From contig JWZX01001537.1 of the NCBI GenBank assembly GCA_001275005.1, positions 1 to 33,674 of the forward strand: DNA of 33,674 nucleotides. The letters are read 5' to 3'. The stretch's first letter is position 1. Each line of letters opens with the position of its first letter. The stretch is from Chrysochromulina tobinii. Lineage: Eukaryota. The translations under genes were made by a program, and so were the position numbers. Below the pieces are notes generated by a model that was not told where the DNA came from, did no database searches, and was given only the letters and a program-made list of their open reading frames with translations. This document shows, one piece after another, positions 1 to 32,700 of this stretch.

Positions 1-1823
1 GGCGGTGGCGTTGGCGGTGGCGTTGGCGGTGGCGTTGGCGGCAGCTGAGGCAGGGGCAAAGCAGGCGGCAGAGGAGGCAGCGGCAGAGGAGGCAGCGGCA
101 GAGGAGGTGACAGTCGAGGCGGCTGCCGACGAGCTGGCAGCTCCCGGAGCACTGGGCGCCTCTGGTTTGGAGTATCCCAGTGCCGACAGGTGCAACGAGT
201 GCAGCAACGGAGGCAGTGGTGCCGCGACCAACGTGGCGGATCCCGCGGCAGCCCCACTAGCGGCGGCGGCCGCGGCCGCGGAGGCCGCGCTGTCGGAAGC
301 GTTGGTGGCGGTGGCGGCGACGGTGGAAGCAGCGGCGCTCGACACGGCGCTACACTCGAAGGCATTGCCGTTGGAGGTGGGCGAAGGCGCGGCGGGTGGC
401 GCGGCCGGCACCGTCACCCGAAGCGTCGTGACTGTCGCCATGCGCTGCTGCAGCGTCGCACAGTCGAGGTGGCGCGAGGAGCGCGTGTCCAGCGATGCCA
501 AGCGAGGGCTTCCGTGGAGCGCCGAGCTGAGCATCGGCGCGCGGAGGGCCTCACAGTCTCTCACCTGTGGGAAGAGGGTGGAGCGCCGTGGTGAGCGCAT
601 GCATGCAGCCGTAGCGTCACGTGGAGGGCCTCGCAGCCTCTCACCATGAGAGTGCGGAGCGCGGGTAGGGCCCACTCGAGCCGCTCCAGCTTGACGCACC
701 CGTCCAGCCGCAGCTCACACAGCGACGGCGCCGCGAGCACGAGGACGCGAAGCTCCTTACACCCAGCGAGGTCGATGCATCGCAACGCGGGGCAAGTGCG
801 ACACGCGAGCGTGAGAGCCTCGGGCCGGAGCTCACGGCAGCTCTGGAGCTCGAGGGTCTCAAGGGCCGGGCACACGAGGCTCGGCGTCGCGAGCGCGCGG
901 CAGCCAGAGAGCACCAAGGTCCGCAGCCTTGCCGCCTCGAGCGTTGGTGCCCGGAGTTGCGACACGCCGTAGCACTCGAGTACAGTCAGCTGGGGCAACG
1001 TGGCCGCAGCGCGGCTGATGGCGACGTCGCCGAGGCGCATGCACATGGAGACATCGAGGCGCGTCACGCGGCTCATCCGCGGCAGCAGCAGCTGCAGGCT
1101 CGGCTCCGAGAGGCGCGCGATCTGGCTGAGCTCGACGACCTCGAGCCGCGGCAGCACGTAGAGCGCTGCCGTCATCCCGGATTCGGAGAGGTCGCATCCC
1201 TTGGTGAGGAGCTGCGTGAGCTGCGGGAGTGCGCATGCAAGTGCAAGCAGCGTGTCGTCGCTCATGCGGCACCCGTTGAGCGCCAGCTTCTCGAGCCGCA
1301 GGCAGTGCTTGCCGATGGCGCGCACGCCGCGGTCGGTGATGCCCGATCCATTCCACGAACAGTCGAGTGTACGCAGGCCCGCACAGCTGCGCACGAGCCG
1401 CTCGATCGCCGCATCGGAGAAGCGGCAGTGTGCCAGCTGCAGCTGCAGCAGCTGCGGGCACTCGTGCACCAGCGCGATCAGCCCAGTGTCCTTGAGCCGC
1501 GGACAGAATGAGATGTCGAGCGACAGCAACCGCGAGCCGCAGGCACGGCCGAGGAGGCACAGGCCGCGATCGCTCACGCGCGAGCCACGCAGCTTCAGCT
1601 CAGATGCGGCAAAGTTTGCCATCACGCCGTCCGTGAGCGTGCCCTCAGCGATGCAGCATGCGAGCAGCCGCATGCGCAGACGCTCACTGAGGCTCGACAG
1701 CCGGTGGGGCGGACAGTGCTCCTCGGAGCCGAGATGCCGCGCTACCTCGACGCATGCGAGCGCGACAAGTGAGGGGTGGCCATCGCCGCCGCACATTGGT
1801 CGTTGCTCGCCGATGCCCTCCAT
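1..1823 (-). CDS. Leucine-rich repeat protein, FBXL/AMN1-like (cysteine-containing LRRs); 3' end runs off the window. Exons 1823-645 and 564-<1
   Basis: Many LxxLxLxxC repeats (LLSLDISFCPRLKDTGL, LRTLDCSWN, LEKLALNGC, VTRLDVSMC). First ATG is at 1823. Removing the GT-AG intron 644-565 continues an LRR (LRTLM|VRDCEALRAPMLSSALHGSPRLASLD) into an Ala/Ser-rich tail with no stop to position 1. Confidence 0.85.
565..644 (-). other. Spliceosomal intron (80 nt, phase 0), duplication-plus-core family 1
   Basis: GTGAGA...CCCACAG. The first 22 nt match the first 22 nt of the next exon with 2 mismatches. Contains GCATGCATGCGCTCACCAC, related to the cores of introns 6274-6355 and 6556-6624. Removal restores the LRR frame. 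Confidence 0.85.
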
Positions 1824-2076
1824 CGAGGCGGCACCTAAGCGTCGCAGCCCAGGGTCTGCTTTTGCAGAGCCGAAGTGTTCGACACGACGGCTTGTCGTGA
1901 ACAATCACACCAAGGGCCCCGACATTCATACAACTTACGGTTCTAGCGAAATAACAGTGTTCGATGCGACGCGTGTGTGAAACCGCCTCGACGACGAGTA
2001 TGGGCACTCCACGGTCCCCTTCAAAGTTGTTTTTGTATTGTCCTCTTTTCGAAACCGCGCTTTCCGCACTTTGGCG

Positions 2077-4263
2077 ATGTCGACCGTCCTGGCCTCTTTC
2101 GCCACGCTCCTCGGGGGCAAGGCGGCCAAAGTCGCGAAACCCGCAGAAGCTGCAGATATTTCGCAGGCCGCAGCGGTACGGCCTGCACGCCCACGCAACG
2201 CCGCTCTCGCAATGCATGGCTCGCCGCCACAGAAGCAGCAGCAGCTCACCGCCAATGACGCTTCACCGCCAGATCCGCTGCGAAGCCCGGAACCGCAGCC
2301 GCTGGCCGACGGCGACCGGCGTGAGATCACAAGGCGACTGACGGAGCGGCTGAAGAAACGGCAGATTCTGCCCGCGCCGCTGCCGCCCAACATTGCGAAG
2401 CCGCTGAAAGAGTCTGAGTTGTCCCGCTGCGGCGGCGAGAATGCAAAGATGCGACGCTTCCGTGAGCGGATCATGCACCGACATCACTTTGAAATGCAGC
2501 TCTCGGAGCAGTACATGGGACCAATCCCCGCCACGCACACGTCCACGATGGCCACCCCTCTTAGCACGAGCCGCACGGAGTCTGCGAGCTCGACCCTTGG
2601 CAGCCAATCCGACCCGTCAAAGGTGCCAGGGTACATGAAGCCTGTCCGGCCGCCAAGCGAGACCACGGTGCCGACGAGTGGGACCGAGGCACCGCCAGTG
2701 CCTGCCGGCTCCTGGCCAGCCGGCTCCTGGTTTGCCGGCTCCGCGCTTGAGGTTCCGATCGAGCCGACGGCGTCGACGGACCTCAAGTCGCTGGCGGGCA
2801 GAGAGGGAATGCTTACGCGGCTTCTAGCGAAGCACGTCAGCGACCAGCAGAGGGAGCTCGAGCTCTTCGAGGAGTATGCGCGCAGCCTTCGTATACCACT
2901 GGAGGAGGAACTCGGCAATATTCGTTCGCAGATCATCCTTATGACCACGCGCGCCGCCAAGTCTGGGCGGCCGAAGCCGTCGTCGGACCTCCGTAATAGA
3001 GAGTCGGAGCTCAAGAAGCTTCTCAGGACGCTCGAGATCGAGCGGCAGGAGGAGCTCGACTACTTTGAGCATCAGACGCACGGCCAGCGTCTGAAGGTGG
3101 AGGAGGAGCTCGAGCGCCTCCGTGCCGTGATAGCCTTGAAGGCCGCGCGCTCGGCCACTGGTCGGGTGTCAAATAGTCTCGACTACGAGATCGAGGAACT
3201 GGCCGCGGGCCTCAAGGAAACAATTCACTCGGGCGACACGCCAGTCATCGAGCCCGAGGTCTCAGGCTACCTGATGGGTAGCCCCGTCCCAGATTGGCAG
3301 GCTGAGGAGTGGACGTGGGCTGCCGCGGATGAATGGAGTCGTGCTGCTGAAGAGATGGTCCCAGCCACGCACAGTGGCAGCCCGCCGCGGTCGCCGCCGG
3401 AAATCCTTCGGCGCTGGCACGCCGATGTCCCAGTCGGTTTCGCAGACGAGGCCGAATCCAAGAGCGCAGCCAAGGCCGCCGCCGTCAGACCCTCTAGCCC
3501 CTCAGGGAACTCGGCCGGCTCAAGCACACAGCGGAAAAGCGTGCGGGAGGGGCGGGGAAGCATCAAGGGAGCGACCAACTCGGGCGTGCACAAATCTCCA
3601 CCAAGATCGCCCGTACGAGTTGCGGACGTGCTGGCAGTTGCCGGCTCGCCGGGCACGTTAGTGCCGATCGACCCCGCGAGTCCTGACCCACCCGCGTTCG
3701 ATCAGGTCGTGCCGTTCGATCCCGCGAAGGTGACCCTCATTGGAGGCCCGCGAGGCAATTACTTTGATCGGCGTGCGGCGCCTCTCGGCCCCGACGAACG
3801 CAAGACAGGCTCACCTTCGGGAAAGATGCATGCCGATCCCGAACGCCGCAAGCAGATCCGCGACCGCGACATGGTGTCCGAGATCGATTTCATCGTCGCC
3901 AAGCCGGGCTCAACCGAGAATGTCTGCAAAGTAAAAGAGGCGGGATGGGTGCCCTCGCAGGCGTGGTTTGAGCAATTGCGATACTATCCGACGAAAAACG
4001 AGGAGCTCAAGTACGGTGAATCGGAGGTGGCCTTCTCGGGCAACACGCACGGACCCGATCAGTTCGTCGTCCACATCGAGCAGAATGTGCGCACGCGATT
4101 GGGTATCGGGACCGCCGACCCCGATTGGCGGCCCGATCAGCTGCACCGCCGCTGGGCGACCAATCTGCCCAAGCACCTCGTTCACCCTCAAGCTCAACCG
4201 CCGGACGACCCGTACATTCAGGGGCGTCAACTTTATATGAGGACGCAGCCGGCGCGTAGGTGA
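2077..4263 (+). CDS. Hypothetical protein with a central coiled-coil and Pro/Ser-rich low-complexity regions
   Basis: Long ORF (728 aa from ATG 2077) with an E/L/R-rich heptad segment (ELELFEEYARSLRIPLEEEL...LKVEEELERLRAVI). No recognisable family. Head-to-head with the LRR gene. Confidence 0.7.
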   Translation: MSTVLASFATLLGGKAAKVAKPAEAADISQAAAVRPARPRNAALAMHGSPPQKQQQLTANDASPPDPLRSPEPQPLADGDRREITRRLTERLKKRQILPAPLPPNIAKPLKESELSRCGGENAKMRRFRERIMHRHHFEMQLSEQYMGPIPATHTSTMATPLSTSRTESASSTLGSQSDPSKVPGYMKPVRPPSETTVPTSGTEAPPVPAGSWPAGSWFAGSALEVPIEPTASTDLKSLAGREGMLTRLLAKHVSDQQRELELFEEYARSLRIPLEEELGNIRSQIILMTTRAAKSGRPKPSSDLRNRESELKKLLRTLEIERQEELDYFEHQTHGQRLKVEEELERLRAVIALKAARSATGRVSNSLDYEIEELAAGLKETIHSGDTPVIEPEVSGYLMGSPVPDWQAEEWTWAAADEWSRAAEEMVPATHSGSPPRSPPEILRRWHADVPVGFADEAESKSAAKAAAVRPSSPSGNSAGSSTQRKSVREGRGSIKGATNSGVHKSPPRSPVRVADVLAVAGSPGTLVPIDPASPDPPAFDQVVPFDPAKVTLIGGPRGNYFDRRAAPLGPDERKTGSPSGKMHADPERRKQIRDRDMVSEIDFIVAKPGSTENVCKVKEAGWVPSQAWFEQLRYYPTKNEELKYGESEVAFSGNTHGPDQFVVHIEQNVRTRLGIGTADPDWRPDQLHRRWATNLPKHLVHPQAQPPDDPYIQGRQLYMRTQPARR

Positions 4264-4516
4264 TTGAGCAGCAAGCCAATAATCGATAGTTCGCTGAGCT
4301 CTGCAGGGGGGTAAGGATTGACTTTTCTAGACGTGAAGCACGCTGGCTGAATCGCCAGGAAAGAGACACCGATACATCCTCAAGAAAACGACCCAGGGGC
4401 CGCACATTCCACAGCAAACGCGGGGTCCCCGAGCCCGCGACGCCGACGGTGCGTCACAGCCTTCCGTCGATCCATCCTGGATCCATCCGTATTGTCTGCG
4501 TGGATAGTGGCGGCGT

Positions 4517-6964
4517 ATGCTGGGTAGCATACGGGCAGTATGCCGGGCATGCTCGTGCCGAGCGTGCTTTACCATCACCTTCGCCGCTCTTTGGGTGCTC
4601 TGCCTCTCGGGCCCGTGCTTTGGCTTCAACTCGCTCTACCCGGTGCTGTACGCCGAACAGCTCTTTGTCGACGCGTGCGATGCGGATGTTGCCGCCGTAT
4701 GCAAGGCAGCCATCAACACGACCCGAGGAGTGCCGTGCTGTGACGAGCAGAGCAAGAAGATCGTGATGCTCTCGACGATAACGCTCTTCGCTGAGGACGG
4801 CGTGCTGGTCCTGTACGGCGAGCTTCAAGACCGGGTGGGCGCTCGCAACTCGCTGCTGGTGGCCGGGTCGATCATGAGCACAGGGCTGGGGATACTGGCG
4901 TACAACTCGCTCATCGCTGATATCGAGCTGCTATGGTATTCGGGCTTCTTCCTGCTGGGTGTCGCGGGTCCTGGCATCTTCCTCTCCGCGCTCTCGCTCG
5001 GCGAGAAGTTCCAGGGGCTCGAACCGGTCATCACGCCGATTATCACGGCGATGTTTGATGCCTCATCGCTCGTATTCTTGATCTGGTCGGCCCTCTATGC
5101 CCAGGGGTCTGGCGTCCCATTCGCCACAATCCTCCTGAGCTGGCTAGGCCTCGCGTTACTAGCATCTGCATGCGTCTACTTCTTGATTCCGACCTACAAG
5201 GCACTACAGACGCTGCACCTGCAGCGGCAGGAGAACGCGCTGACTCGCTCGCGAGAGCTGCCAGACTCGCTCCTCGACCCCTTTTGTAGTACCTCGTCGC
5301 TCGCTGGAGGCGGATCCATGCGAGCGTCTCGAGAGTGCCTCGATCCCGACGCATCTCGTGGGAGATACACATCTCGAGAGTGCCTCGATCCCGACGCATC
5401 TCGAGGGAGATACACATCTCGAGAGTGCCTCAATCCCGTGCGGGAGCCCATCCCAGCAATGCACAGCCACGACGGGCAGACGCGGGAGGCGCACCACGAA
5501 GGCGGCGGCGGCGAGGGCGGCGGCGAGGGCGGCGGCGGCGGCGGCGAGGGCGGTGGGGGCGCGGTCGGTGTGAGCACAGCGGCGGCGGCGAGCGCTGCTG
5601 GGCTCGTGCACGCCGAGCAGTACCGCCTGTACTCTCACTACCGACAGCCTGAAGGCCTGCCCTATGGCCTCATTAGGGACGGCCAAATTAGGGACGGCCT
5701 CATTAGGGACGGCCAAATTAGGGACGGCCTACTTAAGGACGGCCTGATTAAGGACGGCCTAAGTAGGGATGGCCCGCCCTATGGCCCGCCCTCGCCCGGC
5801 AGGAGGATGCACTGGCAGAGGCCCACCAAAGCAGTGACGGCGGCTCCAACGGTGGCGCCAACGGCCGCTGCGGCGCGCCATCGCCATCGCCGCAGCGGCA
5901 TCATCCCAGAGTCGCTCAGCCATTGAGTGCGCCGATGCTCAACGGCTCCTCGCCCGCTCGTGTGGACCGTGAACATCGTGTGGACCGTGAACACCTTCGG
6001 CGCCGCTCACGCGAAGAGCTGCAGGCGGACGGGCGGCTCAATACGGCGCCCATGTTGCCGCCCGTCGGTAGGGACTCGCTCAATACGGCACCCCTGTTGC
6101 CGCACGTCGGTGGGGGCTCGCTGGTAGGAGAGGTGGAGGTGATGCATTACGACGACACGACGACGCTGCGTGAATTACTCTGTCGGACGGACACGGTGCT
6201 TATGGTGAGCTTCATGGCCAGCCTCAACCTGAAGCAGGCCTTTTACATCCAGACGGTCGCGCAGCAGCTTGAGGTGACCTGGGACCTCGAGATCTCGAAC
6301 CCTCATGTACTCTTAGCATGCAAGTGCTCACCACAGCGCCATCACCTCCCCACAGGTGACCTGGGACCTCGAGATCTCGAACCACATCTCGAACTACTTC
6401 AACGTGCTCTTCCCGGTACTCGCGCTACTCTCGACGCCCATCGCCGTATGGCTCTTCGCCAGGTTCCAGCATCGCGACCACGAGTACATGCTCGTGTGTG
6501 GAGGCCTCATGTCGGCCTGGGCGATCTGTCAAGGGATTCCCACAGTGGCCACCCAGTACGCTGCCGCGACGCTCTTCGGGCCGGCTGCATGCAAGTGCTC
6601 ACTACGATGCCTCCCTCCCCACAGGTACGCTGCCGCGACGCTCTTCGGGCCGGCGCGCACGCTCGTCTGGGCCGCGTACTTCCACTTCTTCCAGAACGCG
6701 GCGCGCTACCCGCCCTCGAAACTGGGACGGTTGATAGGCTACTCGAACCTACTGCTCGCCGTCGTGGGCGACCTCCCGCCGATTCCACTCTACTCGTATG
6801 TGAAGAACCAGCGCGATGACGCGGCATCGACCCTGGTGTTCACAGTCATCCACGCGGTGCTCACGGGCGTCGTGCTGGCGATCCTCGTCGTCCTAGTCGT
6901 CTACCTGCGCCGGCAGCACCGCCGAATGCTCGAGCGATTCACGATCATGACCACGGGCGCGTGA
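4517..6964 (+). CDS. MFS transporter, SLC43/FMP42-like. C-terminal exons ...-6273, 6356-6555, 6625-6964; junction in the central loop (about 5570-5926) unresolved
   Basis: N-half has about 6 TM with GPCFGFNSLYPVL, GELQDRVGAR (MFS motif A-like) and MFDASSLVF. C-half has about 6 TM after removing two introns. The two halves are in different frames across the low-complexity loop. Confidence 0.75.
5327..5438 (+). repeat. 45-nt tandem repeat (about 2.5 copies) encoding SRECLDPDASRGRYT
   Basis: TCTCGAGAGTGCCTCGATCCCGACGCATCTCG(T/A)GGGAGATACACA at 5327 and 5372, partial copy at 5417. Confidence 0.9.
5666..5770 (+). repeat. 15-nt tandem array, 7 units, encoding G(L/Q)(I/L/S)(R/K)D
   Basis: GGCCTCATTAGGGAC / GGCCAAATTAGGGAC and variants, flanked by GGCC(T/C)GCCCTATGGCC at 5654 and 5771. 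Confidence 0.9.
6274..6355 (+). other. Spliceosomal intron (82 nt, phase 0), duplication-plus-core family 1
   Basis: GTGACC...CCCACAG. The first 28 nt (GTGACCTGGGACCTCGAGATCTCGAACC) are identical to the start of the next exon. Core GCATGCAAGTGCTCACCACAG. Removal joins the 5923 frame to the 6356 frame. Confidence 0.9.
6556..6624 (+). other. Spliceosomal intron (69 nt, phase 2, in-frame, stop-free), duplication-plus-core family 1
   Basis: GTACGC...CCCACAG. The first 30 nt are identical to the start of the next exon. Core TGCATGCAAGTGCTCACTAC. Removal eliminates the duplicated peptide YAAATLFGPA. Confidence 0.88.
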
Positions 6965-7196
6965 GAGTGCCTGAGTGCGCCGTCACTGTGTGGAGAGAGA
7001 CAGTGCAAGAGTGCACCCCTTCACCGGACAGGGTGAGAGCCCATTCATTGCACATTGGTAGACCAGCAGCACCTCTCGAGATAGTCTGAGAGAGTGCAGC
7101 GCGGGCACCAACCACCGAGCAGAGTGCGGCTTAATTAATGAGGTTTGGAACTTCGGTAGAGTCCTATTCACAGATGTGAGATGAACATCGCAACAC

Positions 7197-8069
7197 ATGG
7201 AGCAGTCCGAGCCGCTGACCGCGCTCGTGCTCGTTGCCAAGAGCCCGAGGAGTGGCACTTCGAAGACGCGTCTGACGCGCGAGCTCGCCGCTGCGTTGGC
7301 CGCGCTTGCCAGCAACGCAGCGGCTTCGCCAACCACCCAAGCGCAGCTGGATGCGGCGCAGCAGTGGACGGAAGCCTTATCGCGCGCCTCAGTCAAAGAC
7401 CTCATCAGTCGACTCACAGTGGATTCATATCGACGCGTGCTGCTTTACGCACCACCGGACGATGCGGCACGCGCTTATTTCGCCGAGCTGCTCCGTGAGG
7501 TCGTCCCGGGCGGCGAGGGCGAGGCGAGCTGGATGCTCATGCCCGTGCTGGCGGGTTCCAATCCAAGGTCCTCTGACCTGAGCAGCGTGCTCTCGGACGC
7601 GCTGACGCGCGTGCGCACTACGACAGGATGCATGCGCGTCGCCTTTCTCGGCTCCGACTGCCCCGAGCTGCCTCTCGCCTCGGTCGATGCCGCAACCGAA
7701 GCGGCCAAGGAGCATGGCATTGCCAGCCTCTGCCCGGCCTCCGACGGCGGTTACACGTTTCTGGCTCTGCCCGCCGAGGCGGATCCGTCGAGGGTCTTTG
7801 AGGCGGTGCACTGGTCCGCCAAGGACACAGCGCTCTCGCAGCTTGCTGCGCTCTCGCGTTCGGGCCTCCGCTGCCACGTGGGACGAACGCATTCGGACGT
7901 CGACGAGCTCGACGACCTTCGCGCCCTCGCTGCACGGCTGCGCGGGGCTGAGCGCACCGAGCTGTGCCCACATACGGCTGCGCTCTGCGCCGAGATACGC
8001 CACGTCCTCGACCCCGGAGGCACTGCTGAGGAGGATCGGGTCGCTGGGGTCTCGACGGGTGCAACATGA
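7197..8069 (+). CDS. DUF2064 / TIGR04282-family transferase (CofC-like GT-A fold)
   Basis: Family motifs in order: VAKSPRSGTSKTRL, VAFLGSDCPEL, LCPASDGGY, VFEAVHWS, SDVDELDDL. Single exon, 290 aa. Confidence 0.85.
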   Translation: MEQSEPLTALVLVAKSPRSGTSKTRLTRELAAALAALASNAAASPTTQAQLDAAQQWTEALSRASVKDLISRLTVDSYRRVLLYAPPDDAARAYFAELLREVVPGGEGEASWMLMPVLAGSNPRSSDLSSVLSDALTRVRTTTGCMRVAFLGSDCPELPLASVDAATEAAKEHGIASLCPASDGGYTFLALPAEADPSRVFEAVHWSAKDTALSQLAALSRSGLRCHVGRTHSDVDELDDLRALAARLRGAERTELCPHTAALCAEIRHVLDPGGTAEEDRVAGVSTGAT

Positions 8070-11199: not shown

Positions 11200-13111
11200 A
11201 TGTCGACTGCGATGATGTTGATGCTCCTGATGTTCTCGGTGCAAGGGAGTGTTTGCGCACTCATGAAAGTTCCATTTGTCACATCTGCCAGAGCCAATGC
11301 GCCTTCTACTATGAGCCGCGTGGATTCCAGCGCCTGGCCCATAAGATGCACGACGCCTGGAAGCAGCCGCCGCTGTGATTCGCCAATGTGCGCTCTGTCC
11401 CGCGGACCAATGTTTTCGCCGATGTTCTCAAGAGCCCGGGCTGTTCCGCAGACGGACTTGCTGCCTCGTATACCCGGGTCTCCGTCCCGCAACCGCAAAC
11501 CGGTCGTCAAGACCCCTGGCTATTTGACCACTGGTCCAATTCTGCTCTCGTGGATCGGCGCCATTGTGACTCTGATCTTGCAAGCATCGCTCACCGACTG
11601 GGCACAGCTCGGGCTGGATGCGCAAGCGACTTTTGGCTTTCTTTCAAATGACCCCACCTTGCAACGCGTTGCGATGTACTCATGCATCTTCGTATCCGCC
11701 TTCGGTTGGAGCGCTGCGGTTATGCCACGACTGCTACCCCCGAAGCAGTCGCAGCCAGATGCCGACGGGAAGACAGTCTCCCTTGAGGTGCCTCTCCGGA
11801 GCCCGAGCAGCATGGTGCAGCACCCGCTAAATGGAATCGACGCCTCATACATGGCTCTCAACGCGCTCTGCATGCCCGGCCTCTTCTATCACTTCATCTG
11901 CCTGATGCGCTCCTTCGGCCTTGACTTCGCCTCGCCGCCTATGTTCGGCATCTACCCCGAATCCCCATTCGAACTCGTGACACAGACATTGCCGGAACTG
12001 GTGGTTGCAGTGCCGCTCTACATGGTGAGCTACGAGTTCGTGTACTATTGGTGGCATCGCGCCATGCATGTTTCGCCCATCCTGTACAAGTGGGTGCACC
12101 GGCTCCCTCGGCTCTGATTGCCTCTGATGGTCGCTGATTGCATAGTCTCTGATGGCCTCTGATGGCCTCTGATGGCCTCGGATGACCCCCCTTTTCAGGT
12201 GGGTGCACCGGCACCACCACCAGCAGACGTACCCCGACCGCGGCCTCGTGGACACCTTCAACACGTGCTGCATCGAGTCGCAAGTGGGCCTCTACATGCA
12301 GCTGGGCGTGCTGTGGGCCTTCGATCGTGGCCTTGGGTACTCCAGCCTACCAGGCGCCATCTGGTTCTTCAGCATCGCAGGCTTGCTCTCTGTGCTCTCG
12401 CACGACAACATGGATCGCGCCTTGCCCTTTGATCTCTGGCGAGCAGACGAGCATCACATGCATCATGCGATTGCCAAATGCAATTACGCCCCATACACAA
12501 CGCTGTGGGACCGCGTCTTTGGGACGTATAAGGAATTCGAAGTGAAGCCCGTCACGGCGCCCCGCGAGCTACTACCGGAAGAGGCGATGGCGATTGCTTT
12601 CCTTCCGGTAGTAGCACGCGAACGCGAACCAGAAGGGTCGATGGCACTCGCCCCGATGCGCATCACCGTGTCGGACAGCGCCACCGCTGCTGCCGTGCCG
12701 CCGCTGGCAGAGCGAGAGAGGGAGATTGCAATCTCGAGAGAGAGTGAGATTGCGCGCTTGTCGGAACGCATCTGGAAGGCGGTCCATCACCGCCTTGGCA
12801 TCAGCGACGTCGCAAAAGAAGATGCGATGGAGATGAAAATGAGCCTCGCAAAAGAAGATGCCATCGGCGAGGACCGAGATGACCTCAATGACCTCATGGA
12901 CAGGTCCGCTGACAACGGCCGTCTCAACGGCTACTGCGACGAAGACGACGAGGCCTGCCGCCTCGAGGATCAGCTTGAACGTTCGCAGCTGGTCGATGGC
13001 GATAACATGGTAAAAATGCGAGGGCTCGCCTGGGGCTCCGCCTCGATCATCACCACGCTGCTGTTGTTGTTTGCTGCAATGATGATTTCCTCCGAGAGCC
13101 CGGCGCTCTGA
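11200..13111 (+). CDS. Fatty-acid hydroxylase / sterol desaturase superfamily di-iron membrane enzyme with bipartite presequence. Exons 11200-12089, 12199-13111 (600 aa)
   Basis: His boxes YYWWHRAMH, WVHRHHHQ and EHHMHH followed by NYAPYTTLWDRVFGTY. Signal peptide MSTAMMLMLLMFSVQGSVCA followed by an S/R-rich transit-like segment. Confidence 0.88.
12090..12198 (+). other. Spliceosomal intron (109 nt, phase 2), duplication plus 10-nt array, family 2
   Basis: GTGGGT...TTTTCAG. The first 14 nt (GTGGGTGCACCGGC) are identical to the next exon start. Body is (CTCTGATGGC)-like decamers. Removal restores YKWVHRHHH. Confidence 0.9.
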
Positions 13112-19679: not shown

Positions 19680-21845
19680 ATGCGTCAGATTTCTTCTTTC
19701 CTCGTCGCCATTGCGGCTGTCGCCGGGCGGCTTGCGTCGCCGAACGACTTGGGTGCGCGGCGTTCGGCTGAGGCGGCACCCCAGCAGCCAACTCTCCTTC
19801 GCGGCGGTGGCAGCGTGCACTCTCCTTTTCGATTGAAGGGATCCCGTTCTGCGTCCGTAATAGAAGGCGTCGACCTCTCCTTTTCGGACCTGTCCTTTAC
19901 GGTCAAGGACGGCATGAAGACCATCCTTTTCAATTGCAGCGGGCACGCCACACGCGGGCGGTTGCTCGCCATCATGGGACCTTCGGGTGGCGGCAAGACC
20001 ACGTTGCTCAATGCTCTCTCAGGCAACGTGAAAGCTAGCAAAGGCGCGTCGCTGAAGGGCACGTTGCTCTGCAATGGTGAGCAGTGCGGCGGCGCATCTC
20101 AGGTGCCAGGGCTGCGCATGGCCTTCGTGCAGCAAGAGGATACCTTTTACACGCAGATGACTGTGCGCGAGACCTTGCTGTTTGCCGCACGGCTGCGCCT
20201 GCCCAGCAGTGTGTCTCTCATAGAGAAGGAGCGTCGCGTGGACGACATCATCGCCAAGCTGTCGCTCGTCAAGGCGGCAGGCACGATCATCGGCGATGTC
20301 AAGCGGCGCGGTATCTCGGGCGGCGAGCGCAAGCGCCTCGCCATCGGGTGCGAGTCGCTTGATTGCCACTGATGGCCATTGATTACCACTGATGACCTCC
20401 CTTGATGGCGCGGGCCAGGTGCGAGCTGCTATCAGACCCGCAGCTTCTTTTTTTGGACGAGCCCACGAGTGGACTGGACTCATTCCAGGCGCAACAGGTG
20501 GTGCAGTCCCTCAAGGCTTTGGCCGACGAGGGGTGCACGGTGGTCATGTCGATCCACCAGCCGCGCGGCTCCATCTACAACCTCTTCGACGACCTTCTCC
20601 TCCTCTCCGAAGGACGCGTCATGTACGACGGCACCGCCGCGGGCGCAGCTGCCTATTTCGGCAGCCTTGGCCATCTTTGTCCGGCGGGCATCAACGCGGG
20701 CGAGTTTGTCGTCGACTTGGTCTCGGTGCCATACGGCAGCAAGGACGAGGAGGGCGAGGCACATCGGCGTATCCTCGAGTTGGCAGCTGCCGCCAAGCAG
20801 CAGGCGGCGAATGGTGGCCTCCGGTTTGGTCGACGCGCCAGTGCCCGAGACGCCGTAGCGAGCACTGGCGAGGCGGCGAGCGGCAACGCCCGGTGGCGCC
20901 GTAGTGGGCAGGTGCAGGCAGGCTCGCGCTGGACGCAGTTTCGTCTTCTCTTCCGTCGCGCGTGGAAGGAAGTCTCTCGATCCAAGGCCGCCTTCTTGAT
21001 CAAAGCGTCACAGCAGTTGATGATTGCCCTCATCTACGGAGGCATCTACTCCCTCGGACGTACGCAGAGCTCGATCCAGGACCGTTTCGGCCTGCTCTCG
21101 CTCGTGGCCATCGGTGCGGGCAATCTCGCCATCGCGAGCACCATCCGGACCTTTCCAAAAGAAAAGGCCATCGTGGCAAGCGAGCGTTCAAAAGGCATGT
21201 ACACTGTCGCGCCTTACTTCCTCTCAAAGGTGCTCCGCTGATCCTCCTGATTCCTCTCATTCCTTCCGATTCCTTCTGATTCCTTCTGATGGCTTCCTCT
21301 CGAAGGTCGTCGCCGAGGCGCCAGTCTCGGCGCTCATCTCGGCGCTCGGCGGCGTGGCGCTCTATCCGCTCGTGGGACTCAACCCGCAGCCGGGCAAGTT
21401 TCGCAACTTTCTGATGACGCTCGTACTCGAAGGTTTCGCCTCGGGCGCGCTCGGCCTCCTACTGGGCGCCGCCGCTCCCACGACTGACGTGGCTCTCGCC
21501 ATGTTCCCACCGATCCTCGTGCTCATGATCATCTTCAACGGCTTCAACCTGGCCGAGGAGAACACGCCTAAAGTGCTCCGCTGGCTGCCCAAGGCTTCTT
21601 TCATCCGCTGGTGCTCTGAGGGTCTCGCTGTGAACGAGTTCACCGGCCTCACCTTCTCGTGCGAGGGGAGCCGCGGGCCTTGCGCGCAGACTGGCGAGCA
21701 GGCGCTCGAGCGGGTTTCGTTCCAAAAATCGACGGTCCGGCACGCGGCCATGATGCAGAGCCGGATCATCGGCGCGTGCTACGGCCTCACGTTACTCATG
21801 CTTCAGCGCAACAGGCCCAAGTTCCTGAGTGTGACGCCTGCGTGA
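19680..21845 (+). CDS. ABCG half-transporter (NBD-TMD), plant ABCG7-like. Exons 19680-20347, 20419-21229, 21306-21845 (672 aa)
   Basis: Walker A GPSGGGKT, signature ISGGERKR, Walker B LFLDEPTSGLD, H-loop SIHQP, then SIQDRFGLL, FPKEKAIV and AVNEF. Two introns restore the frame exactly. Confidence 0.93.
20348..20418 (+). other. Spliceosomal intron (71 nt, phase 2), family 2
   Basis: GTGCGAGTCGCT versus next exon GTGCGAGCTGCT (10/12). Body is GATTGCCACT/GATGGCCATT/GATTACCACT/GATGACCTCC decamers. Removal restores LAIGCELLSDP. Confidence 0.88.
21230..21305 (+). other. Spliceosomal intron (76 nt, phase 0), family 2, duplication at the 3' end
   Basis: Upstream exon ends CTTCCTCTCAAAG|GT and the intron ends CTTCCTCTCGAAG|GT. 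Body is (GATTCCTTCT)-like decamers. Removal gives PYFLSK|VVAEAP. Confidence 0.85.
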
Positions 21846-29765: not shown

Positions 29766-32700
29766 TCAGAGCGAGCGGGTCGGCGCCCGCACACGGAGCG
29801 GCAGCGTATGCAGTCGCGCGCCCTGCAGTGCATGCACAGCAACGGCGTCTTGCTTTGCGATCGTCGCTGCGGGCGTTCGCGCGCCGACCACGCTGTCTCG
29901 CGCTGCTGGGGCATGTGAGACCTGCTCGGACAAGCCCAGAGAAAAGCCGCACGCTGGCGGCGTGCAGCGGCGGCGCTCGGGTGCTGCGCCGATGCTACCC
30001 TGACGCCGAGAGACCCACCATGGGTCCGGGTGAGGTTGCAGCTGCGCAGTCGTGTGCGGCATGCCGCTGCGGGACTGCCCGCCATGCCCACCTGCGCCGC
30101 CTCCGCCGCTGCCACCACGATCGCCACTTGCCCCTAGGGAGGCCTGGGCACCTGAAGAGGAGCCCACGCACCTGCTAACGGACCGACCATCGCCATCTGT
30201 GTAACCCTCGGCAGTGGCCACGACGCCCTCAGCACAAGTCGGATGCTGCGGCTCACCCCCGTGCATGGCGTGCGTACAGGAGGGACTGCCCGCGGCAGGG
30301 TGCGAGCGGCCACGACCACCTGCCCACGCGGGGGCAACGGACGCTCGGCTGGCGTCGGTGCCAGCGGAGTATCCCCGTTCTCGAACAGTGGCACTCAGGT
30401 GAGCAGGACCTGCGAGCGTGCTGCGGCCGGCAAACCAGCTGATGGCGCCGTGGGACCCGCACCGACTCGATGGCGAGCTTGCGCCTGCGCCTGCACAGCC
30501 CTCGCCACTGCCGATGACGCTACTGATACCGCCACTGTAACCATTGCTGGTGCCGGCACTGCCTTCAACTCCAGCTTTCTCACTAGGACCGCTGCCTTTG
30601 GTGATGATGCCGCTTCCGCCTCCGCTGACAACACTGGCCATGCTCAGCGCGTCGCCGACGTCGCCACAGGCAGCTGAATTGCCGGCCGCGGCACTCAATC
30701 GGGAGCCCTGAGCGTGGCCTCCCATACCCTTCGCAGCCGGAGCCAAAGGGCTGCTGCCACCACGTCGGCGGGCCTCCAATTGGTCCACGCGCGTCAACAG
30801 TTCAAGGCGCGCGGCGCCCGCAGCACTGCAGCTCATGGCATAAAAGGCACTGCTGCCACCACAACTTAGACCGCTGCCGAGGAAAGGCGAGCAGCCCACC
30901 AGCATGTCTCCAGCGCCCACCCCTCCGCCAGCAGCGGTCACTGGGTGGCCGGCTGAGTGACCAACCTCCTCTTGACACTGGCGGCGTGAGATGGCACTAA
31001 CTTCGTGTATGGACGGACAGCGCCAGTGCAGTCCATAGCCACAAGTGCATGGCTCAGAGGAAGGCGCGCATCCAACTGCCCCCATGTGACCGAGGGACGC
31101 GCCTACAACAGTGGGTGTGGCGCACGCGCCATTGCTGTCCTCGTGCGGCCTTACGTTGCACAGTGTGAAGAAGGAAGGGTGCATCAACCGGGAAAACGGG
31201 TTGCGTGCGGTGTCCATGGGTATTGACGAGGCGTCGCCTCCACACGCAGGAAGGCTTGCCATCGAGAACGGCGCGGCTTGTGCGCACACGGCGCAACCTG
31301 GGCCAGCACTGCAGGCGGCGCAATCGGTCGAGCCGCTGCCGGCGGTTCCAATGGCCGCATTTGATGCCGGCAAACCGAGAAAGCAGGCTGCGGCCGCGAT
31401 GGCAGCGGTCGCTTTGTCGTCTGCATTCGCTATCGCCGCCTCAGACGGCGATTCGCGGCCTGCCCCCGTCGGCACCGTGCTATCATTCGAGCTGCTTACG
31501 CTCGACACATCCGGTGACGAACCTGGTGCCGCCACGCTGCCGGATCCCAGTCCCGCGCTCACGGCCGCAGCGGCGGCCGCCTGCAGCTTCTTCAGTGCTC
31601 TACTCGCTGGCTTGGAAGCATCCACCTTGGCACTAGTCGCGTTCTGCTGCGCCACAGTGCGCCGGTTGGTGGCGGTCCGACCGAAGAGGGTCTGGGCGGT
31701 GTTGAGAACGCGATCGTAGCATTGAGCACGTATGGGCTCCTCGTCAGGGTAGATGCGCTCAAAGTTGCCGAGCACCTGAATGGGGCAAGGTAGTAAGGTT
31801 AGGAGGAGCAATTTTGTCAACGGTCATCAGTCTTGAACATGTCCTCACCTGTTCCTCATGCTTGGTCATGGCGGTCTGGGCGATCTCCTGCTGTTGCCTG
31901 CGCAGCCTCTCACGCTCCTCGAGTGACAGCTTGGGCCCAGCGGTGCCACGCACCTAGGCAGCCAGAGAGGTGGTGCAGCGACGATTAGTGAAGGAGTTGA
32001 GAGGAATAGCCGTGTGAGAGGGGCGAAAAGGACCAGGAAGATGAAAAGGAAATGGCGTTTGCACCTGCTGCATCCGCTGCTGCCGCGCCAGCTGTTGTTC
32101 CTGCTTGAACTTCTTCTTGTGATATGCTTGCAAGTGAATCAGGCGCATCGTGTTGCGCAGCAGCTCGAGCTTGATCTTCTGATCGAGCTGCGAGCCGCAA
32201 GAGAACGACGGAGCGTGATTCACCTCAAGCAGCCACGGCTTCCCCTTTCGATCCAAGATCACGTCAAATCCGAGAATTTCGAAGCACGAGAAACCAACAT
32301 TGTCATCACCGAGCAGCGAGTGATACACGTGCGCGAGGTGGGGCTGGACAGATAGCAAAGTCTTCACAATCAACTGCTTGATCTGGGCCCAGATGCGCTC
32401 CGTCGCATAACCCACCTGCTTCAGCCAAGCGAAAAGAGACGAGACCGAGCGCTTGTGGCCACCATCGCCACCCTCGTCGATAGTGAACTCCTCGTGGTGC
32501 TTATTGATCGCAAAGTTTGTTAGGTGCATATACGCGTCGTCAAGATTGGACTCGTTGGGATGCTATGTCAAGTCAAGCCAACGGGAACACGCGGGTGGTT
32601 ATCGAAGGGAATAAAATGGGTTTGGTAAGGACAGGGCCACAGAGTTCTCGACCAGCGCCGCGTCAGCCGCTCACCCGGTAGCGCTCCGTACAGAAGCGCG

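What the first reader, a model, noticed from the sequence alone, without database searches (positions are those of the whole stretch)
6274..6624. Intron-generating element: long exon duplication supplies the 5' splice site, a shared cassette supplies branch point and 3' splice site (family 1)
Seen: two neighbouring introns in the MFS gene begin with a perfect 28-nt or 30-nt copy of the downstream exon's first bases, which start with GT. Each then carries a shared cassette of about 40-55 nt, GCATGCAAGTGCTCAC(C/T)AC...CCTCCCCACAG. A third copy lies in an unrelated gene on the other strand (565-644). Splicing removes one duplicate plus the cassette and restores the pre-insertion coding sequence exactly. 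Known: introner elements (Micromonas, Aureococcus, dothideomycete fungi) create introns, and the DNA-transposon types have short target-site duplications and terminal inverted repeats. Inference: here the duplications are 22-30 nt and variable and I see no TIRs. That points to a different route, such as staggered-break/target-primed insertion or repair capture of a mobile 3'-splice-site cassette at an exonic GT. Perfect duplicates imply recent gains. I cannot confirm from the sequence alone that this is undescribed.
Basis: partly seen in the sequence, partly recalled or inferred. Interest (0 to 1): 0.88.

Follow-up and report, generated by a model that had tools for sequence, protein, structure and literature searches.

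The report
Introns that seed new introns
Genes of a freshwater alga carry a large family of short inserts, predicted to be spliced out as introns, each lying between two 10-47-base copies of the gene's own sequence; they likely spread when DNA repair copies part of an existing, often neighbouring, intron into a break, which would show where new introns come from.

Summary
Observation confirmed. The window is a Chrysochromulina tobinii contig. Both inserts have perfect 28/30-nt duplications and are absent from orthologues 94-100% identical; a third lies at 565-644. The family is large: about 3,800 metagenome stretches hold the core. Of 118 isolated copies, 65 take the 5' site from a 10-47-nt duplication (type A) and 14 are mirror images taking the 3' site from one (type B). 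No inverted repeats, no poly(A). New here: copies carry leftovers of a traceable source locus, joined at short shared sequence, and related copies cluster on one contig (4 of 32 contigs; 0 of 1,000 permutations), also across strands. A second, unrelated intron interior shows the same footprint. Best reading (0.55): microhomology-guided repair copying from existing introns, filtered by selection, not a transposon. Splicing is supported by frame, codon and orthologue tests, but I did not see a spliced RNA junction directly. The 2025 introner survey lists 0 families for this species. This scan noted a repeat-flanked intron family in this genome before (e1-2577349).

The parts
6274..6355 (+). Insert 1, predicted intron, type A, 82 nt
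   Evidence: absent from 13 of 13 orthologue proteins that span the site
6274..6301 (+). Insert 1: 28-nt perfect copy of the downstream exon start; supplies the GT
6302..6315 (+). Insert 1: 14-nt linker; 9 nt of it match 6482-6490 in inverted orientation; source not established
6316..6338 (+). Shared 23-nt core; inferred branch A at 6330 (CTCAC; branch consensus recalled)
6339..6355 (+). C-rich tail and CAG acceptor
6356..6383 (+). Exonic copy of duplication 1
6556..6624 (+). Insert 2, predicted intron, type A, 69 nt, in frame, no stop
   Evidence: absent from 15 of 15 close orthologue proteins aligned and from the distant homologue P0003
6556..6585 (+). Insert 2: 30-nt perfect copy of the downstream exon start
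6587..6609 (+). Core of insert 2 (4 differences from core 1)
6625..6654 (+). Exonic copy of duplication 2
565..644 (-). Insert 3, predicted intron, type A, 80 nt, in an LRR gene
   Evidence: absent from orthologue P0039
623..644 (-). Insert 3: imperfect 22-nt copy of the downstream exon start (543-564)
605..634 (-). Insert 3: 30 nt identical to an exon that follows a type-A copy in another gene (locus L097); 10 nt of it are shared with the target exon
584..606 (-). Core of insert 3
4517..6963 (+). Host gene of inserts 1 and 2: predicted multi-pass membrane protein, ~776 aa in orthologues; family not assigned
1..1823 (-). Host gene of insert 3: leucine-rich-repeat protein, runs off the window's left end

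Best explanation
These are inserts between long copies of the gene's own sequence, predicted to be spliced as introns, that likely arise when repair or replication synthesis at a staggered break switches, at a few shared bases, onto an existing intron (often a neighbour), copies 40-80 nt that include its branch-point core and one splice end, and switches back 10-47 nt upstream on the target. The return duplicates the target, and the duplicate supplies the missing splice site: GT in type A, AG in type B. Only events that splice out exactly would survive in exons, and each survivor can serve as the next template, so the core would behave as a lineage without needing a transposase. Shown: anatomy, family size, empty orthologous sites, mirror forms, source-derived linkers, local clustering. 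Inferred: splicing, branch point, break and template switch, selection. Untested: the enzyme (Pol theta end joining or MMBIR are recalled candidates) and whether the template is DNA or nascent RNA.
For: 86 of 127 isolated core hits have flanking duplications above the 99th percentile of swapped-flank controls. Duplications 10-47 nt, median 28. Source-derived linkers joined at microhomology: insert 3 holds 30 nt identical to an L097 exon, 10 of them shared with its own exon (expected by chance ~1e-8); L095 holds 12 nt of neighbour L094's duplication, 5 of them shared with its own; L084 holds the double-core intron of L082; L134 has two opposite-strand copies sharing 8 nt. Linkers of 8 nt or more are shared in 12 of 161 same-contig pairs (tandem neighbours under 200 nt and module-module pairs left out) versus 6 of 20,401 other pairs; by contig 4 of 32, permutation mean 0.21, 0 of 1,000 reach 4. 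3 of 19 opposite-strand same-contig pairs share 8-11 nt. Types breed true at one core letter: 13 of 14 B versus 5 of 65 A. Same A/B footprint around a different, repeat-like interior. No TIR, no poly(A); no sharp 5' edge in 43 copies found without the search 16-mer. Exact junction is the best coding register in 46 of 62 A and 13 of 14 B; sense beats antisense in 49 of 62 and 14 of 14.
Against: No de novo event, enzyme or intermediate seen. The sourced pairs are few (4 contigs plus insert 3) and the control pool mixes strains, which lowers the background. For insert 3 the source match is to an exon, and L097's present intron does not hold that stretch next to a core, so an unseen allele or an extra switch must be assumed. 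Most linkers have no traced source, and linkers match their own +-280 nt only slightly above chance (5 of 36 at p<=0.05, mean 7.2 vs 6.6). One end is always exact at a splice site, which selection and microhomology can explain but which excised-intron RNA or a nicking transposase explain as well. The plain open-frame test was weak for type A (49 of 63 spliced versus 40 of 63 unspliced). The spliced junction itself was not listed.
Confidence: 0.55

Rival explanations
1. RNA-templated gain: a reverse transcriptase copies excised intron RNA or pre-mRNA at a staggered nick (TPRT or RNA-templated repair). Starting at the RNA's 3' end and stopping early gives type A; starting inside and running off the 5' end gives type B.
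For: The exact ends coincide with splice sites in both types and the other end is ragged; linkers can be read as the source intron's own 5' part (L094 to L095).
Against: No poly(A) or tail; local clustering including opposite strands; insert 3's source stretch is exonic; duplications up to 47 nt are long for TPRT (recalled). Nascent pre-mRNA used in cis is not excluded.
Confidence: 0.17
2. Non-autonomous element moved by an HUH (Replitron/Helitron-type) transposase that joins one end exactly, with host repair finishing the other end.
For: Replitron-1 in Chlamydomonas inserts after RG with one exact end, a parent-derived fuzzy end and variable duplications (PMC10288648): the layout of type B. 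A 12-bp palindrome overlaps the core in 10 of 14 B copies. A Replitron-like protein is listed for C. tobinii.
Against: That Replitron is a single-copy incomplete fragment and the core is not in the paper's supplements. Type A has its exact end on the opposite side and keeps the palindrome in only 8 of 65; unrelated interiors show the same footprint; weak folds; no terminal direct repeats evident on reading the inserts.
Confidence: 0.15
3. Two steps: a classical short-duplication introner inserted whole, and a later local duplication overwrote one of its ends with exon sequence.
For: A and B overlap in the core and together spell one ~70-nt intron; Chrysochromulina MAG introners with 4-bp TSDs are published. 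L015 (second copy) looks close to a full copy with a ~6-nt repeat.
Against: Among 118 isolated copies, only 3 of the 18 with the 5' module end in a CCCACAG-like tail, and there the tail belongs to the duplicated upstream exon end; A and B differ at a diagnostic core letter, so they are separate lineages; linkers come from other loci; inserts 1 and 2 are perfect and absent from 94-100% identical orthologues.
Confidence: 0.08
4. Assembly artefacts or unspliced exonic insertions.
For: Insert 2 is in frame without a stop; no spliced junction row was seen; some core copies lie between duplications with no splice sites or in tandem arrays.
Against: An unbroken DNA contig spans both inserts; the same anatomy recurs in many separate assemblies; type-A lengths are spread over all three frames (24/21/18); P0008 is 100% identical to the exons and lacks insert 2; RNA contigs begin or end on the duplication borders.
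Confidence: 0.03

Closest known systems
Introners / introner-like elements that co-opt one splice site from the target duplication (Aureococcus, Symbiodinium, Polarella classes 4/5, 6/8/10; Chrysochromulina Tara MAGs; Emiliania fam24)
   Same: Families of similar introns; one splice site carried, the other taken from the duplication; exact restoration of the exon.
   Different: Published duplications that I saw are fixed, 2-10 nt; here 10-47 nt and variable. Similarity does not reach both intron ends; no TIRs; mirror forms; source-derived linkers; local spread. C. tobinii is scored 0 introner families in the 2025 survey.
[quoted passage not shown]
   Same: Direct repeat of the adjacent exon end at the far end of a new intron, read as a staggered break (PMC4202315).
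   Different: There 4-12 bp repeats, AT-rich unique inserts, source mostly unknown; here 10-47 bp, GC-rich, one shared core and traceable sources.
Replitron-1/-N1 insertions in Chlamydomonas reinhardtii
   Same: One exact end, parent-derived fuzzy end, variable duplication including the target dinucleotide.
   Different: 0.9-3.6 kb elements with terminal direct repeats and a transposase; not reported to make introns in the passages read; no such ends found here.
Tandem genomic duplication and intron transfer/transposition models (PMC3443670)
   Same: Duplicated exon sequence yields a splice site; an existing intron is the donor.
   Different: Tandem duplication has no foreign insert and needs AGGT; intron transfer needs paralogues; here unrelated genes, a foreign core, and only 5-10 nt of shared sequence.

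Membership tests
Introner (functional definition) | Many similar introns at unrelated positions | tested here: met
   193 unique copies with the 23-nt core in the fetched loci and window; ~3,800 stretches estimated
Introner (functional definition) | Empty orthologous site with one copy of the duplication | tested here: met
   At protein level; the DNA of the orthologues was not seen
Introner (functional definition) | Exact removal from mRNA | tested here: inconclusive
   Coding-register test positive, P0008, RNA contig borders; junction not seen directly
Introner (survey definition) | Similarity extends to near both splice boundaries | tested here: not met
   One end is target-derived in both types
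MITE / DDE introner | Terminal inverted repeats | tested here: not met
   Mean 2.8 (A) and 3.2 (B) matches of 10, best 6
MITE / DDE introner | Fixed short target duplication | tested here: not met
   10-47 nt, sd 8.6
SINE / non-LTR (TPRT) | Poly(A) or repeat tail at one fixed 3' end | tested here: not met
   0 of 79 inserts with an A5/T5 end run; the fixed end differs between A and B
SINE / non-LTR (TPRT) | Partner LINE sharing the 3' end | not testable with these tools
   No genome held
Replitron (non-autonomous) | Exact end at an RG target, fuzzy parent-derived end, variable duplication | tested here: inconclusive
   Fits type B; type A has the opposite geometry
Replitron (non-autonomous) | Short terminal direct repeats | not tested
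   None evident on reading the inserts; no formal scan run
Replitron (non-autonomous) | Intact transposase with matching ends in the genome | not testable with these tools
   Paper lists a single-copy incomplete fragment; genome not held
Break-repair intron gain | Direct repeat of the adjacent exon across the intron | tested here: met
Break-repair intron gain (templated) | Microhomology at junctions and a nearby template | tested here: met
   In the few sourced pairs; most linkers unsourced
Break-repair intron gain (templated) | Dependence on a repair enzyme | not testable with these tools
   Needs mutants

The most novel reading that the evidence does not exclude
A transposase-free replicator: intron fragments that propagate genome-wide, intron to intron and mostly to neighbours, through the host's microhomology-guided repair, leaving a readable parent-to-daughter record, and making a large share of this lineage's introns while staying invisible to introner screens.
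Probability: 0.4. Interest if true: 0.92.

Novelty: new variant of a known kind. Interest (0 to 1): 0.78.

Why it matters
[quoted passage not shown] Here the scar, the donor and the empty site are all readable, in a cultured alga whose genome the largest survey scored as introner-free. If the reading holds, mass intron gain needs no transposon, surveys that demand end-to-end similarity undercount it, and the mechanism can be tested by genealogy of copies and by mutation-accumulation lines.

Tried and rejected
No whole genome held; genomes behind five loci not held, so no genome-wide count, no search for a transposase or RT. A cleaner RNA lay was not obtained, so the spliced junction stays unseen. 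Viral contigs: 2 hits, one a family copy at a contig end, one unrelated. Prokaryote genomes: 0 hits. Rfam: 0 matches in 1-8000. Search with the LRR gene's downstream exon found nothing. Plain open-frame test weak for type A. Linkers from the immediate flanks: not supported overall. My first automatic 'AB' class mostly counted one type-A duplication twice and was replaced by stricter classes; of the 14 strict B, L080 looks like a type A with a module-like linker and L106/L118 are one site, so about 12 are independent. The generic GT-AG scan is not deduplicated and is swamped by simple repeats; used only to show examples. G at -1 (53 of 70) and A at -2 (32 of 70) cannot separate microhomology from splice-site selection. 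The lower word share of RNA runs (0.69-0.86 versus 1.00) and read depths were not used as evidence. Inserts 1 and 2 are not parent and daughter (4 core differences, different linkers).

Full report
Observation. The two inserts are as described: 6274-6355 (28-nt perfect GT-started copy of the next exon, 14-nt linker, core, CCCCACAG) and 6556-6624 (30-nt copy, 1-nt linker), plus a minus-strand copy at 565-644 with a 20-of-22 duplication. Only 1 of 100 triplet shuffles gave any such repeat of 12 nt, none longer. Removing both inserts gives one open frame; insert 1 (82 nt) must go, insert 2 (69 nt, no stop) could be read through. A DNA-run contig spans both without a difference (possibly the source DNA). 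The window is a Chrysochromulina tobinii contig: the named protein Ctob_005056 lies on a 33,674-nt contig and matches its exons. No genome is held.

Empty sites. I aligned 15 of the 29 members of the orthologue cluster (94-100% identical to the query, contigs up to 21 kb). All 15 lack insert 2 and all 13 that span the first site lack insert 1, each with one copy of the duplicated peptide; a 36%-identical homologue lacks both too. One member begins with M at the GTG of 6356, which indicates a caller that does not splice, so the long contigs are likely intron-less DNA (inference). That member, P0008, is 100% identical to the window's exons and lacks insert 2 (spliced RNA or an allele; not decidable). 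Bias: intron-broken alleles may cluster elsewhere. For insert 3, of 10 close orthologue proteins read, 8 read into the insert, 1 lacks it (P0039), 1 ends earlier: an older gain.

RNA. Six RNA runs hold the stretch; three were laid. One RNA contig aligns from 6625 with its first 52 letters lying elsewhere, and in another run contigs start at 6354 and 6625 and end at 6585, the duplication borders. The table of joints was cut (24 rows not shown) and no splice joint was among the rows listed. Splicing is therefore indicated, not seen.

The family. The 16-nt core matches about 3,800 stored metagenome stretches by the tool's estimate; 137 loci came back; 0 in prokaryote genomes. Of 127 isolated hits, 86 have an upstream/downstream duplication above the 99th percentile of swapped flanks. 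Of 118 isolated copies with the 23-nt core, 65 are type A (duplication of the downstream exon gives GT; own C-rich tail gives CAG), 14 are type B (own 30-nt 5' module gives GT; duplication of the upstream exon end gives AG; about 12 independent) and 39 are other, 14 of these with a strong duplication, some of them type-A variants and some with no splice sites. Type-A duplications run 10-47 nt (median 28), 19 of 65 are perfect, and duplication and linker lengths are anticorrelated (rho -0.60), keeping GT to branch at 32-65 nt, as a spacing need would. With a codon model trained on the window's long ORFs, the exact junction is the best of three registers in 46 of 62 A and 13 of 14 B, and sense beats antisense in 49 of 62 and 14 of 14; duplication mismatches fall 15/10/27 on codon positions 1/2/3, as if perfect at birth and aged on both sides. 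The plain open-frame test was weak for A. No TIRs, no poly(A), no Rfam match. An unrelated repeat-like interior shows the same A and B footprints in the window (12090-12198, 20348-20418, 21230-21305) and in the loci.

Sources. Insert 3 holds 30 nt identical to a 48-nt exon that follows a type-A copy in another gene (L097) and stays in frame with its neighbours there; 10 of the 30 are shared with insert 3's own exon. L095's linker is the end of neighbour L094's duplication, joined at 5 shared bases; L084 carries L082's double-core intron; L024/L025 and the two L134 copies share linkers across strands. Sharing of 8 nt or more: 12 of 161 same-contig pairs versus 6 of 20,401 others; 4 of 32 contigs, 0 of 1,000 permutations. 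Non-consensus core letters are also shared locally (34 of 154 versus 1,520 of 18,623). A and B differ at one core letter (5 of 65 versus 13 of 14). Against: most linkers are unsourced, the control mixes strains, and L097's present intron does not hold the matched stretch beside a core.

Mechanism. Most likely (0.55) synthesis at a staggered break switches by microhomology to an existing intron, copies the core and one splice end, and returns upstream; the duplicate supplies the other site; selection keeps exact events; survivors become templates. Break, switch, enzyme and selection are inferred. Rivals: RNA-templated (0.17), HUH-mobilised (0.15), two-step (0.08), artefact or unspliced (0.03).

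Literature seen. Gozashti 2022 (bioRxiv 10.1101/2022.06.06.494994, parts 1-2 of 5; PMC9860276 supplement searched, cut when stored, SI PDF unreadable): the pipeline needs similarity near both ends; Chrysochromulina introners come from Tara MAGs, 4-bp TSD in the figured case, many families with TSD '?'; C. tobinii appears only in the input list of what I could search. Gozashti 2025 (PMC12130899, parts 1-2 of 7, passages, 12 of 14 supplements searched): C. tobinii 0 families; noted TSDs 2-10 bp in the 19 of 25 places shown; one Emiliania family with 10-bp direct repeats. Roy 2020 (10.1101/2020.10.14.339549, parts 1-2 of 4): fixed 3-8-nt TSDs. Craig 2023 (PMC10288648, passages, section 9 part 1 of 2, supplements). 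Li 2014 (PMC4202315), Yenerall 2012 (PMC3443670), PMC11282704, PMC8469720, Hovde 2015 (PMC4580454; one mention of introns): passages. PMC12403724: abstract. Ten searches showed no description of this family; subscription papers are not covered, and the unread SI and the Tara families marked '?' could hold relatives.

Earlier scan notes. e1-2577349 reported a repeat-flanked intron family in this genome and read it as a short mobile sequence; I confirm the footprint and add the mirror form, sources, local spread and empty sites. It is not independent support.

Verdict. Real, recent, large, and outside the published introner types in duplication length, mirror symmetry and traceable local ancestry. 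It works like an introner; it fails the MITE, SINE and survey definitions. New variant of a known kind; interest 0.78.

Noticed in passing
window 12090-12198, 20348-20418, 21230-21305 (+): Three predicted introns with a different, GATTGC/CTGATG-repeat interior and the same footprint (14-nt and ~7-nt downstream duplications; ~13-nt upstream duplication). The type-B 5' module contains this repeat motif, so the two families have recombined.
   Followed up: partly
window 5793-5798: A DNA-run contig has about 64 more bases here (record 29), which matches the frame break in the membrane-protein gene; orthologues read through. Likely an assembly collapse in the window.
   Followed up: partly
window 2218-6963: The public model Ctob_005056 (P0002) fuses an upstream ORF to the membrane-protein exons and uses both type-A acceptors with other donors: probably mis-annotated, which may help explain why annotation-based screens missed the family.
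   Followed up: partly
window 6304-6312 and 6482-6490: 9 nt of insert 1's linker are an inverted match to the exon 170 nt downstream; its left border also resembles a linker seen in L003, L012, L028.
   Followed up: partly
L009, L016, L070, L004, L019, L037, L046: Tandem arrays of the core (45-nt period in L009 and L016) and back-to-back repeated introns at one site.
   Followed up: no
L017, L020, L025, L058, L091, L135: Core copies between 17-43-nt duplications with no clear splice sites: possibly the unselected products of the same process.
   Followed up: partly
core 5' edge in 41 of 206 copies: A 12-bp perfect palindrome overlaps the start of the core; 10 of 14 type B but 8 of 65 type A.
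   Followed up: partly
L001 301-360: A family copy at the end of a 4.5-kb IMG/VR contig; host DNA or a virus carrying the intron, not resolved.
   Followed up: no
P0018 cluster; window 565-644: Unspliced read-through of the core ends many database proteins with the same short peptide, a marker by which the family could be counted in protein collections.
   Followed up: no
L097 whole locus: Four predicted introns within 616 nt; the exons resemble a family-A DNA polymerase motif (recalled, not tested).
   Followed up: no
window about 31770-32680 (-): Several AT-richer gaps in a coding region that look like ordinary introns, with no flanking repeat of 14 nt or more; borders not checked.
   Followed up: no
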